DNA of 64,000 bases from Patescibacteria group bacterium (GCA_028687045.1 JAQUAW010000001.1:2034-66033); one strand, 5' to 3'. Shown: positions 5,720 to 55,585, numbered from the stretch's first letter. The notes: a model not told the origin generated them from the letters alone. Numbers and translations: made by a program.

Positions 5720-6751
5720 TTATTTCCAATAAATTCTATCAGAATAACGTAGATCTATATAATCCAAAAACTTATTTTCATCTTTTATTTTGTCTCTATA
5801 CAAAGCTTCTATTTTATTTATTTGAGATTTCACATCTATATCAAAACGTGTTTTCATATAAAATCCTTTGTATGTTTTTATGGTAAGATCTTGATGGTTA
5901 TCTTCAAATACAAAATATTTTAAAGGAATTTTTTCATTATTATCTAAATTTTTAAACCAAGCTATAATTGAGCTAACTTCATTTTTGTCTAAAACATTTT
6001 GATTGATAGTTACCTCTTGAAAATTATTTTTATCATAAATAATTGGATAATTACCTAAATCTTTTTTTATTGCATTTATGTCAGGTTCATGAAATCTAGC
6101 TATTACTATGGTAGTGGTAACTGTAGTACCATCATTTGTAGTCGTGGCTACATTTTTGGTAATATCTTTCCATTCATAATCACTGGTTTTACGCATTATT
6201 TCTACTATTTTTCCATCTAAATCAACATAGCTATATTCAATTCCATTATCATAGATAATAGTTGATATTTTTTCTTGAATAATAATTTCTAATTTATTAG
6301 GGAAACTTTTTTTGACTATTATTTTTTCTATAGGATATCTATCTTTTATAATATTTTTTATGTCATTAATATTGGCAATTAAATAGCTGTTTTGTTTGAT
6401 AAAACCGAATTTATTATAATTTAATATACCATTCACAGTGTCCAAAAGTTCTGTTTTGTTTATTCTTTGTATTCCTTCAATATTTATATTTTTGATAGAG
6501 AAAAATGGATGAAAAATAAATAAAGAAAATGTAAAAGATAAACTAAAAACTATAATAACTACTTTTAGATAAATATGATTATTGACTTTTTCATGTAAAA
6601 ATGGATTTTCCATTTCTTTGCCTTGCCAAGCAAAATCACGTCTTGTTTTTTTATAATTAAAAAAAGAGCTAAAAAACTTTTTGGTATTTTTTACTTTATG
6701 ATGAAACTTTCTTTGTAGTTTGTGATGATTTATGATTTTTTTGACTGACAT
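5720..6751 (-). CDS. ftsQ: Cell division protein FtsQ/DivIB-like (single TM plus POTRA)
   Basis: Basic N-terminus, one TM helix, then INIEGIQRINKTELLDTV, which is a POTRA signature. Confidence 0.55.
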   Translation of the reverse strand: MSVKKIINHHKLQRKFHHKVKNTKKFFSSFFNYKKTRRDFAWQGKEMENPFLHEKVNNHIYLKVVIIVFSLSFTFSLFIFHPFFSIKNINIEGIQRINKTELLDTVNGILNYNKFGFIKQNSYLIANINDIKNIIKDRYPIEKIIVKKSFPNKLEIIIQEKISTIIYDNGIEYSYVDLDGKIVEIMRKTSDYEWKDITKNVATTTNDGTTVTTTIVIARFHEPDINAIKKDLGNYPIIYDKNNFQEVTINQNVLDKNEVSSIIAWFKNLDNNEKIPLKYFVFEDNHQDLTIKTYKGFYMKTRFDIDVKSQINKIEALYRDKIKDENKFLDYIDLRYSDRIYWK

Positions 6752-32518: not shown

Positions 32519-33236
32519 TAGTATTATACACCTTTTGACGTTTTTTTAAAATAGTTTTTTTAAAAAATAAAAAACAATAATAAAAAATAATTATTGTTTA
32601 TCTTTAAAATCTTATAATTATTATTTACAAAATAAATTATAAAAAATTCAAATTACAATAATTAACAAATCTTTTGTCAAAATCAATCTAAATTTTTGTT
32701 TCAAAAAACCAAAACTTAGATTGATTGAGACGACGTACCTCCTTTGTTAAAGTAATCTCAATCCTCCTTTTGTTCTTCTTTTTTTTCGATGAGCCCTCAC
32801 AATGGGGGCTTTACCGAAGAATGGTGTTGAATGGCTCTGCCAAACACCACCACAAAGCTGAACCGAGCTACAAGAGGATGATCGGAACCCTCCACTTTAA
32901 ACTCGTATATACCAGACGTAACAAAAATAAACAGAAAATTATGATGCACTTCTTCGACTACTCGGCACTGTGGCCGCTTAGCCAAAAAGTGAATCATATA
33001 CATCAAAACGCCTTCATGCGTTTTGATGTGTTGACCACAAAAAGTTGGAAGAAAAGAGATACTACGTAGGTGATAAAGTCTGCAAACAGTCTTGATATCT
33101 CCACTGTTCACAGCACCAACACACCTCCCTAAAAAAGCTGTATTGCGCCGCCACGACTCTGTCGCGGCAGCTAAAAATAGAAACAAAGCCAAGAAAGGCA
33201 CTGTTGCCAAAAGATCCACCTGGACCTCCTAGAAAT

Positions 33237-33458
33237 GCGACTTCACAACGTGAGAACTTCTCACGCCATTCAGTCGCTGGTTTCTATCTAAAAAATAGAC
33301 AAAAATCAGCAACTGAATTTTTTGGCACGCACAAAATCATACTCTCCGACATATCCACTGTCAATTACTATATCCTTGACAGAGTGTAATTTGTCGTTCT
33401 ATTTGTAAAAGTTCTCTATACAAAAAAATACACCTAATTTAATAGATGTATTTTTTTT
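33237..33458. repeat. Copy 1 of a 210-220-bp direct repeat. It contains a GC-rich nested hairpin, a degenerate TTGACA palindrome and a terminal hairpin with a T run.
   Basis: About 90% identical to 33650..33866. Starts GCGACTTCACAACGTGAGAACTTCTCACGCCATTCAGTCGC. Confidence 0.7.
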
Positions 33459-33649
33459 GCCCCTCCTTTCCTCCTTTGTGTATGTGAATGGTTGGGCAAT
33501 TACCTCAAGCGGATCCCCAATAGCGGGAATCTCCACCTGAAGCCCCTGATTTCCGGCGGCTGTTTAGCCAGCCGGAAACCATCAACAACACAATGACGGG
33601 AGACACTCCCGCCAAAAACTCCAAAAAGCTCATGTGAGCCTCCGAAACG

Positions 33650-33866
33650 GCGACTTCGCAACGTGAGTACTTCCCACGCCATTCAGTCGCTAGTTTCTAT
33701 CTAAAAAATAGACAAAAATCAGCAACTGAATTTTTTAGCACGCACAAAATAATACTCTTTGACATATCCACTGTCAATTACTTTACCCTTGACAAATTTC
33801 AATTTGTCGTTCTATTTGTAAAAGTTATTTATATAAAAAAATACACCTATTTTCTAGGTGTATTTT
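33650..33866. repeat. Copy 2 of the same direct repeat. It contains the perfect palindrome CTTGACAAATTTCAATTTGTCG and the terminator TACACCTAttttcTAGGTGTATTTT.
   Basis: Aligns to copy 1 with a 413-bp period. Confidence 0.7.
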
Positions 33867-50157: not shown

Positions 50158-50192
50158 AATTTATTTATTTTGATTTCCATAATTAATGGTGT

Positions 50193-50278
50193 TCTCCCCC
50201 TTGTAGGGGGAGCTAGAGGGGGTTAATGACAATTTAATCAACGTCGAACCCCACCTGACCTCCCCTACAAGGGGAGGA
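50193..50278. repeat. GC-rich composite hairpin element between atpZ and atpB
   Basis: CTCCCCCttgtaGGGGGAG and its inverted twin CCTCCCCtacaaGGGGAGG flank a third hairpin, AGGGGGTT…AACCCCAC. Confidence 0.55.
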
Positions 50279-50297
50279 ACTCTCTAAAAAGTTTTAT

Positions 50298-51742: not shown

Positions 51743-51830
51743 GGATACGAAATACGAAAATTTACGAAAGTACGAACTACGGAACTTTCGTATGTTCGTA
51801 CTTTTCGTATTTCGTATCCCTATTAACGAA
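51743..51830. repeat. Long imperfect palindrome built from the same TTCGTA/TACGAA units, upstream of tatD
   Basis: GGATACGAAATACGAAAATTTACGAAAGTACGAAC…CTTTCGTATGTTCGTACTTTTCGTATTTCGTATCC. Confidence 0.6.
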
Positions 51831-52437
51831 TTAAATTCTCAGCGTAATCTACAGTAGAATGAAGCAATTGCAAAGCCTTTGGCAAAAGTGGAATAAAGAT
51901 AGAGGCAATATCACTCAAAATTGGAGCGATTATTGAATTTGCCAAACTTGTCATTATTTTTTCAGAAAGCGGAATTCTTTCAATAAAATATACAAACAAG
52001 CCAAGACTTAGAATACCTTCAATAATACCCAAACCTAAACCAAACAAACGATTGAAAGTTTTGACAAAAGGAACGATAGAAACTATCTTAAAAATTCTAT
52101 CAATAAACCAAAACAAAACACCAACCAAACTAGTAATAATAAAAAAAGCCAAAACAAACATCAAAACCTTACTAGTATTTACTCCCCAACCTGTTACAGA
52201 AATAAGCCAATTAGCCAAATCCTGATAATATCTACCGGCCAAATAAACACCTAAGAAAGTACCAATGAGTGATCCAAATGCACGGACAAATCCAGACCAA
52301 AAACCATAAATACCAAAACTACCTATAATTATAAGAAAAATGATATCAGTGACATTCATACATATATAATAAAAATTATGCTTATATTTTACTATAAAAA
52401 AAATAAAAAGTAAATAAAAAAGCCCAATATTGGGCAA
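51823..52437 (-). CDS. cvpA: CvpA-family membrane protein. The start may be an internal Met (MNVTDIIF…).
   Basis: Four TM helices with GxxxG-rich segments typical of colicin V production protein. Confidence 0.55.
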   Translation of the reverse strand: MPNIGLFYLLFIFFIVKYKHNFYYICMNVTDIIFLIIIGSFGIYGFWSGFVRAFGSLIGTFLGVYLAGRYYQDLANWLISVTGWGVNTSKVLMFVLAFFIITSLVGVLFWFIDRIFKIVSIVPFVKTFNRLFGLGLGIIEGILSLGLFVYFIERIPLSEKIMTSLANSIIAPILSDIASIFIPLLPKALQLLHSTVDYAENLIR

Positions 52438-52454
52438 TTATTTTTGTGGTTTGT

Positions 52455-52602
52455 GAGGAGAACGGTGGGACTCACGTTTGTCTGTCGACTACGGGTATTG
52501 ACGCGAAGGAGGCACGTCAGCACCGCACGTAGAGCAAACTACCAGTCCATCTAGGGAGCAAACTCCCCAGACTATGGCCGCGAGCACTCCACCGTTCCCC
52601 TC
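52455..52602. ncRNA. Candidate structured ncRNA of about 150 nt, identity unknown. It has a long terminal helix and two internal hairpins. The strand is uncertain.
   Basis: About 60% GC in a roughly 30% GC genome. The 5' GAGGAGAACGGTGGGACTCACG pairs with the 3' CGCGAGCACTCCACCGTTCCCCTC. Internal hairpins are CTACG..TGACG..CGTCA..CGTAG and GGGAGcaaaCTCCC. Confidence 0.45.
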
Positions 52603-52662
52603 AACCACAAACTACGATATTTTAGTTAATTTGTCAATAGTTAGTTATAAAAGCAGTTCAAT

Positions 52663-54183
52663 CTATTTCTCTAATCTTACAAACAAAATATCTGCTTTTT
52701 TGATTTTTTTTCCTTCTTGCAATAAACCCCATTTTTTTTCTTCAGCAAAATTGTCTGAAACTTCCAAATTCAATTGAGACAAAATCTTTTCTGCAGTTCC
52801 AGGAATAATTGGTACCAGTGATAAAGCCAAATGTCGTAGACCTTCTACCAATTGATACAATAAAACAGAGATATTTTCACCAGTCTTCACTTTTTCCCAA
52901 GGTTTTTCTTCAGAAATTTTCAAATCTATCTTAGAAACCAAGGAATTGATATTTTTTATTACTTCTTCAAAATCAAATTTAGCAAAAGCACTTTCATAAT
53001 CTAACCAAAATTTTTCTGTTCCAAAAATATCTGTTGCAAGGGCTGGTACCTTATTTTCTTGATATTTTTCAATCATAGTCAAAATACGAGAAGTAAGATT
53101 ACCAATACCATTTACTAGATGAGCGGTGTAGAAATTTTCAAAACGTGATACTGAAAAATCACCATCTTTAGTTGAAGAAACTGCTCCAAGCAAATAATAA
53201 CGTACAGCATCTGTTCCATATTTAGTAACAACATCTTCTGGATTCACGACATTTCCTAGAGATTTACTCATCTTCTCTCCTTCAGTTGTCAAATAACCAT
53301 GTATAAATTCTGTTGTTGGCAAATCCAAACCTGCAGAAATAAGCATAGCCGGCCAGTAAAGAACATGAAATTTGCCAATACCTTTGCCAATTACATGCAC
53401 TACTTCCCTATTTTCTTGATCATTTTGTTCCCAATATTTTGCAAACAAACTTTCATCACTACTACCAAAATTTAAACCTGTTATATAATTTGACAAAGCA
53501 TCCACCCAAACATACATAATTTGACTTTCATCACCTGGAACTTTTACCCCCCAATTGTGAGCACGCTCTGCACTACGAGAAATACTAAAATCTTCCAATC
53601 CTCTATCTATAAAAGCAAGCCACTCATTTTTACGAAATTCTGGAGTAATATTTATAATGTTTTTTTCTAACAATTCTTTCAATTTTTCTTGGTAATTGGA
53701 AAGTTTGAAAAACCAATTTTCTTCTTCAACCACTTCCGGTACAGTCTTATGTTCCAAACATTTACCATCCTCGAGTTCTTCTTCTTTATAAAAAGCTTCA
53801 CAACCAACGCAATACAAACCTTTGTATTTTCTTTTTTCTAAATCTTCTTTCTTGAAATTATTCCACAATTTTTGGGCACCTTTCATATGTCTATCTTCTG
53901 TAGTACGAATGAAGCCATCAAAAGAAATATTCAAAATATTTTTGAAATTATAAAATTCTTTGTAGTATTCATCAACAAATTCTTGAACACCCTTGCCAGC
54001 TTTTTCAGCTGCTTGTACATTTTTGAGAGAGTTTTCATCAGTACCGGACAAAAAGAAAACATCTTTACCCACAAGTCTATGATAACGAGCTATTGCATCT
54101 GTTTGAATATATTCAAGAGCATGTCCAATATGAGGTTTGCCATTGATATAAGGAATAGCGGTTGAAATATAATACTTATTCAT
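52663..54183 (-). CDS. metG: Methionyl-tRNA synthetase
   Basis: HIGH (PHIGHALE) and KMSKS motifs. Confidence 0.9.
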   Translation of the reverse strand: MNKYYISTAIPYINGKPHIGHALEYIQTDAIARYHRLVGKDVFFLSGTDENSLKNVQAAEKAGKGVQEFVDEYYKEFYNFKNILNISFDGFIRTTEDRHMKGAQKLWNNFKKEDLEKRKYKGLYCVGCEAFYKEEELEDGKCLEHKTVPEVVEEENWFFKLSNYQEKLKELLEKNIINITPEFRKNEWLAFIDRGLEDFSISRSAERAHNWGVKVPGDESQIMYVWVDALSNYITGLNFGSSDESLFAKYWEQNDQENREVVHVIGKGIGKFHVLYWPAMLISAGLDLPTTEFIHGYLTTEGEKMSKSLGNVVNPEDVVTKYGTDAVRYYLLGAVSSTKDGDFSVSRFENFYTAHLVNGIGNLTSRILTMIEKYQENKVPALATDIFGTEKFWLDYESAFAKFDFEEVIKNINSLVSKIDLKISEEKPWEKVKTGENISVLLYQLVEGLRHLALSLVPIIPGTAEKILSQLNLEVSDNFAEEKKWGLLQEGKKIKKADILFVRLEK

Positions 54184-54979: not shown

Positions 54980-55232
54980 AATCCTTATTTCTTAATTCTT
55001 AGTTCTTATATAATAACAAATCTAGCCAAAAAATCAAACTATTGACAAAAAAACGAATTTAAAGTAGATTGACTAATCAATTTTGACTAAACAAGGTCAA
55101 ATTTTGTCTACCAAAGATGCTGTCAAACTATTTAACATTATCTTTGGCAGACCAAAAGTCTGCAAACAGACCTGAGAAGGAACGAGCTGGAAGTACCAGA
55201 ACGTCTCTTCTCACCTGCACCTTGGGAGAGGT

Positions 55233-55460
55233 GTGGAAATAAGACGAACAAAGGCCGACACCTACATCAGTGTAGGTTCGGCCATCGGCGCTATAGCGGG
55301 CGCCGTCTTCGGCCTCGAGGCCGGAGGAAACATGGGTGCAGGAATCTTCTGCACCGTGGTCGGCTCCGCACTTGGAGTCGTCCTTGGACTGGTCGCTATG
55401 CCAGTCCTAAAACTAACCGCTGCGGCGTTTGTCAGATCTGACAAACGCCGCGATCTCTAA
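55233..55460 (+). CDS. Small Gly-zipper membrane protein encoded in a GC-rich island. Alternate start codon; the gene model is uncertain.
   Basis: GSAIGAIAGAVFGLEAGGNMGAGIFCTVVGSALGVVLGLVAM carries GxxxG repeats. Local GC is near 58%. It is followed by two hairpin terminators. Confidence 0.4.
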   Translation: MEIRRTKADTYISVGSAIGAIAGAVFGLEAGGNMGAGIFCTVVGSALGVVLGLVAMPVLKLTAAAFVRSDKRRDL

Positions 55461-55510
55461 CAGCCGTGGGCAGAAGCTAAAAACTTCTTTGCCCACGGCC
55501 ATCCAATCTT
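55413..55510 (+). terminator. Tandem hairpins ending in T8 downstream of the Gly-zipper ORF
   Basis: GCGGCGTTTGTCAGATCTGACAAACGCCGC is a perfect palindrome. It is followed by CCGTGGGCA…TGCCCACGG and then ATCTTGccaaaaCAAGATTTTTTTT. Confidence 0.6.
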
Positions 55511-55585
55511 GCCAAAACAAGATTTTTTTTATTTTTTATGCTATAATATGAAAACTAAATAGAAATTAATGTCTAAAATAAAAAT

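What the first reader, a model, noticed from the sequence alone, without database searches (positions are those of the whole stretch)
52455..52602. Roughly 150-nt GC-rich, strongly base-paired element between metG and cvpA: candidate ncRNA
Seen: about 60% GC. There is a terminal helix of about 22 bp (GAGGAGAACGGTGGGACTCACG with CGCGAGCACTCCACCGTTCCCCTC) enclosing two hairpins, which gives a three-way-junction-like fold. No ORF is plausible. It is not part of the hairpin repeat families. The size and shape are compatible with a small SRP RNA, a 6S-like RNA or a cis-regulatory leader of cvpA if transcribed from the minus strand. I could not match SRP, RNase P or tmRNA consensus motifs by eye.
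Basis: seen in the sequence. Interest (0 to 1): 0.6.

Follow-up and report, generated by a model that had tools for sequence, protein, structure and literature searches.

The report
New structured small RNA gene, Magasanikbacteria
The GC-rich stretch between metG and cvpA is a real small RNA gene of an unknown family, read from the minus strand, whose three-armed fold is kept by compensating mutations in the few relatives that carry it; its function is not established.

Summary

The RNA strand is the minus strand, the same as metG and cvpA. It folds at -90.6 kcal/mol (z -8.9), against -68.4 for the plus strand.

A TTGACA-17 nt-TAGTTT promoter sits just upstream and an intrinsic terminator follows. 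This predicts an independent transcript of about 165-190 nt.

Three diverged homologs keep the fold: 97.6% of cells are paired and 30 of 65 pairs have changes on both sides. The fold has a long closing helix with two conserved bulges, a short hairpin, and a long arm capped by an invariant CUCC loop (CCUCCUU here).

No Rfam 15 family matches. SRP RNA, 6S RNA and a cvpA leader are not supported. The gene is missing from the closest relative. Other relatives carry different three-way-junction RNAs in the same slot.

My preferred mechanism is inferred, at about 0.3. The RNA would act in trans, with its anti-Shine-Dalgarno-like loop pairing with GGAGG sites. Such sites are rare in this genome, which largely lacks Shine-Dalgarno sequences.

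Verdict: a new, lineage-restricted sRNA family of moderate interest.

The parts
52632..52637 (-). -35 box TTGACA of the predicted sRNA promoter
   Evidence: Read. TTGAC(A/T) is retained in all nine RNAs found in this slot, always 17 nt from a TAnnnT hexamer. Predicted, not mapped.
52609..52614 (-). -10 box TAGTTT. It is weak, matching TATAAT at 3 of 6 positions. The predicted start is about 52602-52606.
   Evidence: with the spacing conserved in homologs. The simple promoter scan did not call this site because the -10 is weak.
52579..52602 (-). P1, 5' strand (GAGGGGAACGGUGGAGUGCUCGCG), with conserved single-nucleotide bulges A and U inside the invariant UGGAGU
   Evidence: 21 pairs, 8 with changes on both sides, 100% of cells paired.
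52541..52578 (-). P2 hairpin: a 4-bp basal stem, an internal loop containing the invariant CAUAGU, an upper stem and a YUUR tetraloop
   Evidence: The upper stem is shortened by 8 nt in L106 but still pairs.
52480..52539 (-). P3, a long arm of three stacked helices with bulges
   Evidence: helices 5-7 have 12 of 22 pairs with changes on both sides.
52506..52512 (-). Apical loop CCUCCUU, which resembles the anti-Shine-Dalgarno sequence. The CUCC core is invariant in the four A-type sequences.
   Evidence: The B-type RNAs in the same slot have ACCUCCUUA and ACCCCCUUU at the tip of the same arm.
52477..52479 (-). Junction strand AAA, inside the invariant GCAAACG
52455..52476 (-). P1, 3' strand (CGUGAGUCCCACCGUUCUCCUC)
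52436..52454 (-). Single-stranded A/C-rich linker (ACAAACCACAAAAAUAAUU)
   Evidence: It is unpaired in the consensus, and its A/C-rich character is kept in the four A-type sequences.
52416..52435 (-). Intrinsic terminator: GCCCAAUAUUGGGC followed by U6
   Evidence: One search found 2 terminator-like sites in the region against 0.3 expected. The hairpin covaries in homologs: 3 of 5 pairs changed on both sides.
52386..52414 (-). Predicted cvpA promoter (TTTACT-17-TAAAAT), downstream of the sRNA terminator. It is not part of the RNA and is listed to show that cvpA is a separate unit.
   Evidence: The TAAAAT region is also present in loci that lack the element.

Best explanation
SHOWN. The element is a structured RNA whose fold is under selection on the minus strand. 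It is about 150 nt from 52602 to 52455, and about 190 nt including the linker and terminator down to 52416.

It folds into a three-way junction with these parts:
- a 21-24-bp closing helix P1 with two conserved one-nucleotide bulges;
- a short hairpin P2;
- a long arm P3 capped by an exposed seven-nucleotide loop, CCUCCUU;
- an A/C-rich single-stranded linker and an intrinsic terminator.

PREDICTED. It is transcribed on its own from TTGACA-17-TAGTTT.

INFERRED (about 0.3). It acts in trans as a base-pairing regulator. The invariant C/U-rich apical loop, which has the same sequence as the anti-Shine-Dalgarno tail of 16S rRNA, would pair with purine-rich GGAGG sequences and so mask ribosome binding or trigger RNase III cleavage. 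S. aureus RNAIII and Rsa RNAs, and B. subtilis RoxS, work this way through C-rich loops.

This genome initiates translation almost entirely without Shine-Dalgarno sequences. The regulon would therefore be small: the few GC-rich accessory genes that do carry a strong SD behind long structured leaders.

The confidence given (0.35) is for the whole statement including the mechanism. That it is a real structured ncRNA gene on the minus strand I put at about 0.9.
For: Structure and strand:
- The minus strand folds at -90.6 kcal/mol (z -8.95), the plus strand at -68.4. The minus-strand fold has 9 G-U pairs against 3.
- Homologs are L018 (97%), L004 (about 75%) and L106 (114.5 bits).
- On the model-fitted alignment, 97.6% of cells pair and 30 of 65 pairs changed on both sides. 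Slid controls give at most 7, and 0 of 500 shuffles reach the observed value.
- A MAFFT plus RNAalifold alignment made independently of the model gives the same fold, with 20 of 52 compensatory pairs.

Purifying selection:
- Window versus L018 shows 6 differences in 195 nt, against 15 of 179 at cvpA third codon positions.
- All six differences lie in loops or preserve pairing.

Independent transcription unit:
- The -35 box and the 17-nt spacing are conserved in all nine slot RNAs.
- A terminator for metG precedes the promoter in L002, L005 and L106.
- The RNA's own terminator covaries.

Loop:
- The CUCC core is invariant in A-type sequences.
- B-type RNAs have the same motif on the same arm.

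SD-poor genome: 48 of 52 ORFs of at least 120 aa lack any SD-like core. The strong SDs I saw by eye were in three accessory genes:
- 33633-33508, GGAGG-5-AUG;
- 33219-32800, AGGAGG-5-GUG;
- 55233-55460.

Candidate site:
- GACGUGCCUCCUU (52518-52506) is complementary over 13 nt to AAGGAGGUACGUC, which lies in a hairpin loop at 32744-32732 on the minus strand.
- 12 of 13 positions are kept in the L004-type genome.

Precedent for C-rich loops binding the SD: PMC2837412, PMC5419742.
Against: - There is no expression data. The promoter is predicted only, and its -10 box is weak.
- No significant target was found. A duplex-energy scan of the whole window gave no outlier; the best non-self hit, -29.9 kcal/mol, lies within the tail of the distribution.
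- The 13-nt site is not conserved for the B-type RNA, where only 6 nt match. In L118 it has a central A-C mismatch.
- Loop-to-SD pairing with the three SD-bearing genes is only 6-7 bp.
- The 16S 3' end of this organism was not seen.
- A 21-24-bp GC-rich closing helix with conserved bulges is more than a base-pairing sRNA needs, and suggests a protein partner.
- Only four distinct A-type sequences exist, from one small clade.
Confidence: 0.35

Rival explanations
1. Protein-binding or scaffold RNA. The long closing helix, with its invariant bulged UGGAGU/UCCCA segment, and the conserved junction nucleotides would form a protein-recognition site. The RNA would sequester, guide or be processed by a protein, in the way Y RNA, 6S RNA or an RNase III substrate works, rather than pairing with mRNAs.
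For: - Conserved single-nucleotide bulges A and U lie in an otherwise covarying 21-bp helix.
- CAUAGU and GCAAACG at the junction are invariant.
- The helices are very stable and GC-rich, more than a seed-pairing sRNA needs.
- No convincing mRNA target was found.
Against: - No match to the Y RNA, 6S or SRP models.
- No candidate partner gene is linked to the locus.
- The bulges are specific to the A type. The B to E RNAs in the slot have fully paired P1 helices.
- The gene is dispensable in close relatives.
Confidence: 0.25
2. Trans-encoded antitoxin-like RNA for a small hydrophobic protein. This is a specific version of the base-pairing model. The RNA would repress the nearby GC-rich Gly-zipper membrane protein gene (55233-55460) or the 42-aa peptide ORF (33633-33508), as type I antitoxins do.
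For: - Both candidate genes are small, hydrophobic, SD-led and preceded by long structured leaders.
- The Gly-zipper island and the sRNA are both present in the window and in L018, and both absent from L001.
Against: - Complementarity is limited to the SD core.
- L002 has a slot RNA but no Gly-zipper island.
- The genes are 2.6 kb and 19 kb away and do not overlap the RNA.
- Toxicity of these proteins is not known.
Confidence: 0.08
3. Cis-acting element: either a 3'-UTR stabiliser or terminator module of metG, or a riboswitch-like leader controlling read-through into cvpA.
For: - In the window, no terminator separates metG from the element, so metG transcripts should run into it.
- The element is on the same strand as both genes.
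- Three-way junctions with conserved junction nucleotides are common in riboswitches.
Against: - The promoter is conserved.
- In L002, L005 and L106 a metG terminator precedes that promoter.
- I saw no alternative antiterminator pairing.
- The cvpA promoter region lies downstream of the terminator and is kept in genomes without the element.
- Most Magasanikbacteria have a 14-100-nt metG-cvpA spacer.
- No Rfam riboswitch model matches.
Confidence: 0.1
4. Selfish DNA palindrome (MITE-like) or degraded foreign coding fragment, with no RNA-level function.
For: - Presence/absence polymorphism between close relatives.
- GC content far above that of the genome.
- The slot RNAs of types B to E share a conserved inverted-repeat core, GGAC(R)GAC...GUC(Y)GUCC, around a variable interior.
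Against: - Single copy. No other copy was found in 64 kb or in about 0.97 Mb of related loci outside this slot.
- No target-site duplication.
- Strand-asymmetric G-U pairing in 8 of 9 slot RNAs.
- Compensatory changes in the internal hairpins.
- Indels that are not multiples of three.
- Fixed orientation between a promoter and a terminator.
- No phage, plasmid or viral match.
Confidence: 0.05
5. A highly diverged housekeeping RNA: small SRP RNA, 6S RNA, RNase P RNA or tmRNA.
For: The size of 150-190 nt, the GC-rich island in an AT-rich genome, and the long terminal helix.
Against: - No Rfam hit even at E<=10 over the element, nor for the other slot RNAs at E<=1.
- ARAGORN finds no tmRNA.
- There is no central bubble.
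- No SRP domain-IV or RNase P core motifs were seen by eye.
- The gene is absent from this locus in the nearest relative and is replaced by unalignable RNAs in others.
Confidence: 0.03

Closest known systems
S. aureus RNAIII and Rsa sRNAs (UCCC-motif loops); B. subtilis RoxS/RsaE (C-rich regions)
   Same: Stand-alone sRNA gene with an intrinsic terminator. An exposed C/U-rich apical loop is complementary to the Shine-Dalgarno GGAGG. In those systems, loop-to-SD pairing blocks initiation and recruits RNase III (PMC2837412, PMC5419742).
   Different: - No sequence or structure homology, and no Rfam hit.
- One C-rich loop rather than several.
- A long GC-rich closing helix and a three-way junction.
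- The host is a CPR bacterium that hardly uses SD sequences.
- No target has been demonstrated.
6S RNA (Rfam RF00013)
   Same: Length of about 150-200 nt, a long closing helix formed by the 5' and 3' ends, low sequence conservation with conserved structure, and a GC-rich island.
   Different: - No large central bubble. The junction has 0, 1 and 3 unpaired nt, and the 5' side is a covarying hairpin.
- No model match at E<=10.
- Absent from the locus in close relatives.
Small (4.5S) SRP RNA (Rfam RF00169)
   Same: Size class, and extended helices.
   Different: - No GNRA or GGAA-capped domain IV with symmetric and asymmetric loops (checked by eye).
- No model match.
- Branched rather than a single hairpin.
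- Not conserved among relatives.
Bacterial Y RNA (YrlA)
   Same: Long terminal stem with conserved bulged nucleotides, closing a multi-branched upper module.
   Different: No model match. I saw no tRNA-like T- or D-arm mimic by eye. No rsr (Ro) gene was seen near the locus.
Type I antitoxin sRNAs encoded away from their toxin (for example IstR-1 with TisB)
   Same: A small structured RNA that could mask the ribosome-binding region of a small hydrophobic-protein mRNA with a long folded leader.
   Different: No extended complementarity to the nearby small-protein genes was found. There is no overlap or close adjacency with those genes.

Membership tests
Small SRP RNA (RF00169) | Scores against the Rfam covariance model | tested here: not met
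   No hit at the gathering threshold in the window or at E<=10 over 52300-52750.
Small SRP RNA (RF00169) | Domain IV hairpin with a conserved tetraloop and symmetric and asymmetric internal loops | tested here: not met
   Read by eye. The loops are YUUR and CCUCCUU, and there is no GGAAGCAGC-type motif.
Small SRP RNA (RF00169) | Universally retained in related genomes | tested here: inconclusive
   Absent from the same locus in L001/L099 and in most Magasanikbacteria. Whole genomes could not be scanned.
6S RNA (RF00013) | Scores against the Rfam covariance model | tested here: not met
   and for the other slot RNAs.
6S RNA (RF00013) | Large central bubble that mimics an open promoter, between the closing and terminal helices | tested here: not met
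   The junction strands are 0, 1 and 3 nt. The 5' side forms the covarying hairpin P2.
6S RNA (RF00013) | Binds the RNA polymerase holoenzyme and templates pRNA | not testable with these tools
   Needs biochemistry.
Riboswitch or cis-regulatory leader of cvpA | Lies in the 5' UTR of the regulated gene, downstream of that gene's promoter | tested here: not met
   The predicted cvpA promoter (52414-52386) lies downstream of the element's terminator. It is conserved in loci without the element.
Riboswitch or cis-regulatory leader of cvpA | Expression platform with mutually exclusive terminator and antiterminator pairings | tested here: not met
   By eye, no conserved alternative pairing with the terminator arms. 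The terminator sequence varies freely.
Riboswitch or cis-regulatory leader of cvpA | Matches a known riboswitch class | tested here: not met
Trans-acting base-pairing sRNA with a C-rich, SD-targeting loop (RNAIII, Rsa and RoxS type; a functional class) | Independent transcription unit with its own promoter and intrinsic terminator | tested here: inconclusive
   The promoter and terminator are conserved in sequence and position. No transcript data are available.
Trans-acting base-pairing sRNA with a C-rich, SD-targeting loop (RNAIII, Rsa and RoxS type; a functional class) | Conserved unpaired C/U-rich motif complementary to GGAGG | tested here: met
   The loop is CCUCCUU in the window, L018 and L004, and CUCCC in L106. 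The CUCC core is invariant.
Trans-acting base-pairing sRNA with a C-rich, SD-targeting loop (RNAIII, Rsa and RoxS type; a functional class) | Identifiable mRNA target whose pairing is conserved or covaries | tested here: inconclusive
   The 13-nt site at 32744-32732 is kept at 12 of 13 positions in L118 but lost in L124. There is no energy outlier.
MITE or selfish palindromic repeat | Multiple dispersed copies and target-site duplications | tested here: not met
   Single copy in the window and the loci. No duplication at the boundary with the empty site in L001.
tmRNA or tRNA | Detected by ARAGORN | tested here: not met
   no genes in the window.

The most novel reading that the evidence does not exclude
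The metG-cvpA slot of this Magasanikbacteria subclade holds a rapidly diversifying family of three-way-junction RNAs. Each displays an anti-Shine-Dalgarno mimic on an exposed loop.

The host itself initiates translation without SD sequences. These RNAs could therefore selectively silence SD-dependent, non-self messages, from phages, mobile elements or recently acquired GC-rich cassettes. That would be an RNA-only discrimination between self and foreign at the level of translation initiation.

The presence/absence polymorphism, the tandem copies and the swapping of types between near relatives would then reflect the kind of turnover seen in defence loci.
Probability: 0.06. Interest if true: 0.85.

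Novelty: new member of a known kind. Interest (0 to 1): 0.5.

Why it matters
Very few non-coding RNAs beyond the universal ones are described for Candidate Phyla Radiation bacteria, and none can be studied in culture.

This locus offers a compact RNA with unusually clean covariation support from only four sequences. It has clear promoter and terminator signals and one obvious functional handle: an invariant anti-SD-like loop in an organism that barely uses SD sequences.

If the loop does pair with GGAGG sites, it would show sRNA control of the small SD-dependent subset of genes in a non-SD bacterium.

The variable slot, which carries different three-way-junction RNAs in neighbouring genomes, is also a natural experiment in how sRNA genes are born, exchanged and lost.

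If the RNA turns out to be a protein partner instead, it is still a new structured RNA class to add to Rfam.

Tried and rejected
- Rfam at the gathering threshold on the whole window, at E<=10 on the element, and at E<=1 on six related loci: nothing relevant.
- ARAGORN: no tRNA or tmRNA.
- Metagenome scan with ACGGTGGAG-N(100-130)-GAGTCCCACCGT: only copies identical to L018 and L004, plus five chance hits in high-GC coding DNA.
- Three viral-contig scans: none or chance hits only.
- blastn against phage and plasmid collections: no match.
- Search of about 0.97 Mb of fetched loci with model R1 and with a P1-core regular expression: no member outside the metG-cvpA slot. The one extra hit, in L057, folds no better than shuffles, z -0.17.
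- Target search by duplex energy over the whole window: no outlier.
- The attractive 13-nt match to a hairpin loop at 32744-32732 was followed into two other genomes. It is conserved at 12 of 13 positions in one and lost in the other, so I keep it only as a lead.
- I first suspected that two 'units' at 32.7-33.8 kb were further ncRNAs. tblastn shows that unit 2 encodes a protein homologous to ORFs that carry weak or faint SnoaL-family (NTF2-like) Pfam hits. Unit 1 contains a 42-aa ORF. Pfam did not match the window ORFs themselves.
- Hammerhead core, K-turn, tRNA-like arms and 5S rRNA resemblance (GAUGG...UGGUAGU): considered by eye and dropped, with no motif fit and no model hit.
- The helix extension GUGGUUUGUG/CACAAACCAC outside 52455-52602 is not conserved in L004 or L106, so I do not count it as part of the RNA's conserved fold.

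Full report
**Where and what**

The window is a ~31% GC genome fragment. Its metG and cvpA genes have their closest matches in Candidatus Magasanikbacteria MAGs, which belong to the Patescibacteria/CPR.

The finding lies between two genes, both on the minus strand. They are metG (52663-54183, PF09334) and cvpA (ATG at 52359, PF02674).

The segment is 58% GC. It is one of only two GC islands in 64 kb.

**Is it more than chance?**

Both strands fold better than dinucleotide shuffles, but unequally:
- The plus strand gives -68.4 kcal/mol, z -4.8.
- The minus strand gives -90.6 kcal/mol, z -8.9.

The difference comes from G-U pairs: 9 in the minus-strand fold and 3 in the plus-strand fold. G-U pairs exist only at the RNA level. 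This points to an RNA read in the same direction as metG and cvpA.

**Transcription signals on the minus strand**

- TTGACA (52637-52632), then 17 nt, then TAGTTT (52614-52609). This places a start at about 52602-52606, right at the foot of the helix.
- After the helix come a 19-nt A/C-rich linker and the terminator GCCCAAUAUUGGGC-U6 (52435-52416).
- The -10 box is weak, and the consensus scan did not call it.
- The cvpA promoter-like site (TTTACT-17-TAAAAT, 52414-52386) lies beyond the terminator. It is also present in a genome that lacks the element.

**Relatives**

A metG-based scan of one genome per species, together with look-ups of CvpA homologs, gave the orthologous spacer from about 25 Magasanikbacteria loci. 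Three kinds of homolog of the window RNA exist:
- L018, with many identical metagenome copies: 97% identical.
- L004, identical to L086: about 75% identical.
- L106: 114.5 bits to model R1.

With only these four sequences the fold is strongly supported:
- On the model-fitted alignment, 97.6% of cells pair.
- 30 of 65 pairs changed on both sides, against 2-7 when partners are slid by 1-3 columns. No shuffle out of 500 reaches the observed values.
- This alignment leans towards the model. I therefore repeated the test with MAFFT and RNAalifold alone, which recovered the same three-way junction with 20 of 52 compensatory pairs.
- Between the window and L018, the RNA has 6 differences in 195 nt, whereas cvpA third codon positions differ at 15 of 179. 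All six differences are in loops or preserve pairing.
- Indels of 1, 2, 3, 4 and 8 nt rule out a coding reading.

**Anatomy (minus strand)**

- P1 (52602-52579 with 52476-52455): 21-24 bp, with two single-nucleotide bulges, A and U, inside the invariant UGGAGU/UCCCA.
- P2 (52578-52541): a 4-bp base, an internal loop with the invariant CAUAGU, and a YUUR tetraloop.
- One junction nucleotide (52540).
- P3 (52539-52480): three stacked helices capped by the seven-nucleotide loop CCUCCUU (52512-52506). L106 has CUCCC, so the invariant core is CUCC.
- Junction AAA (52479-52477), inside the invariant GCAAACG.

**Known families**

- Rfam 15 gives nothing at the gathering threshold in the window, nothing over the element at E<=10, and nothing at E<=1 in six related loci.
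- ARAGORN finds nothing.
- The junction leaves no 6S-type bubble.
- I saw no SRP domain-IV motif, RNase P core or hammerhead core. These checks were by eye.
- No phage, plasmid or viral contig carries the element.

**A variable slot**

The closest relative by metG (L001, 95.5% nucleotide identity) has no such RNA. Its metG-cvpA spacer is 100 nt and holds only a plain terminator. More distant Magasanikbacteria have spacers of 14-60 nt.

Four other near relatives carry different RNAs in the same place:
- L002 and L117 (type B).
- L005 (type C).
- L003, with two in tandem (types D and E).

These RNAs cannot be aligned with the window RNA apart from P1-like and terminator segments. They do share several features with it:
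- Each has TTGAC(A/T)-17-TAnnnT and a terminator.
- Each folds better on the sense strand. This holds for 8 of 9 slot RNAs, by 10-27 kcal/mol.
- Most form the same kind of three-way junction.
- Type B again shows ACCUCCUUA or ACCCCCUUU at the tip of its long arm, and its P1 and apex are conserved between L002 and L117.

I read this as a small family of paralogous sRNA genes with differential loss or exchange. No member was found outside this slot in about 0.97 Mb of related sequence.

**Mechanism**

What is shown is a conserved RNA fold with conserved flanking signals. What follows is inference.

The one conserved, exposed and sequence-specific feature shared by types A and B is the C/U-rich loop. 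Its sequence equals the anti-Shine-Dalgarno tail of 16S rRNA. In Firmicutes, C-rich loops of RNAIII, Rsa RNAs and RoxS pair with SD sequences (PMC2837412, PMC5419742).

In this genome, 48 of 52 ORFs of at least 120 aa have no SD-like core upstream of the first ATG. Many have a TATAAT-like box a few bases before the ATG. The strong SDs I saw were in three GC-rich accessory genes with long leaders:
- a 42-aa ORF (33633-33508);
- a 140-aa ORF (33219-32800) with SnoaL-family homologs;
- a 75-aa Gly-zipper membrane protein (55233-55460).

A loop that pairs with GGAGG would therefore have few possible partners.

I could not identify a target with confidence:
- Loop-to-SD pairing with those three genes is 6-7 bp.
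- The best extended match is 13 nt with a hairpin loop at 32744-32732. It is kept at 12 of 13 positions in one other genome but lost in a B-type genome.
- A duplex-energy scan shows no outlier.

The long bulged P1 helix and the invariant junction fit a protein partner at least as well. That is my main rival explanation.

**Verdict**

This is a real structured small RNA gene, newly recognised, on the minus strand. It is restricted to a small Magasanikbacteria subclade and is not a member of any Rfam family. My confidence in that is about 0.9.

Its function is open. My preferred mechanism is trans base-pairing through the anti-SD-like loop, at about 0.3. A protein-binding role comes next, at about 0.25.

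As a kind of object it is a new member of a known kind, the bacterial sRNA. It is of moderate interest because of the host lineage, the clean covariation, and the odd pairing of an anti-SD mimic with a genome that largely lacks SD sequences.

Noticed in passing
L002:5630-5795; L117:2259-2412; L005:5640-5765; L003:6213-6368 and 6458-6640: The same metG-cvpA slot in near relatives holds other GC-rich structured RNAs of 115-180 nt (types B to E). These cannot be aligned with the window RNA. Each has TTGAC(A/T)-17-TAnnnT and a terminator, and most fold into a three-way junction. L003 carries two in tandem. Types B to E share a P1 core, GGAC(R)GAC/GUC(Y)GUCC.
   Followed up: partly
window 55042-55535 (+): Second GC island (59% GC). 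It has a promoter TTGACA-17-TAGATT (55042-55070), a conserved structured leader of about 150 nt, and a 75-aa Gly-zipper membrane-protein ORF (55233-55460). Differences from L018 in the ORF are largely synonymous. Two hairpins and a terminator follow. The island is precisely absent from L001. There is no Pfam match above threshold.
   Followed up: partly
window 32676-33800 (-): Two adjacent units share a nearly identical promoter plus leader of about 150 nt. Unit 1 contains a 42-aa ORF (33633-33508) behind GGAGG. Unit 2 encodes a 140-aa protein (33219-32800) behind AGGAGG, homologous to ORFs in L118-L126 that have weak SnoaL-family Pfam hits. Four of the six AAGGAGG heptamers in the window fall in the 3' parts of these two units, two of them in or next to a conserved hairpin just before a terminator.
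   Followed up: partly
window, whole: Almost no Shine-Dalgarno usage: 48 of 52 ORFs of at least 120 aa lack any SD-like core within 20 nt of the first ATG. Many have a TATAAT-like box a few bases upstream, which suggests leaderless or very short-leader mRNAs.
   Followed up: partly
L018:4000-4870 compared with window 53290-54183: metG is mosaic between close relatives. The 3' part and the downstream genes are about 91% identical between the window and L018, but the 5' half of metG is only about 66% identical. L018-type genomes also have a PDDEXK_3 gene inserted between rsmI and metG. This suggests recombination around the locus.
   Followed up: no
window 50191-50280: GC-rich imperfect palindrome (GTTCTCCCCCTTGTAGGGGGAGCTAGAGGGGGTT ... 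AACCCCACCTGACCTCCCCTACAAGGGGAGGAAC) between the ATP synthase a-subunit gene and the upstream small ATPase-gene-1 ORF.
   Followed up: no
window 51743-51819: Perfect 18-nt inverted repeat GGATACGAAATACGAAAA / TTTTCGTATTTCGTATCC, with further nested repeats, between the tatD-like gene and cvpA.
   Followed up: no
L004:3000-3065: Upstream of its sRNA gene, L004 carries an extra hairpin of about 60 nt (GGGUGG...CAUACCUCCACC) followed by a terminator-like hairpin. It may be another small element in the same slot (fold z -3.2).
   Followed up: no
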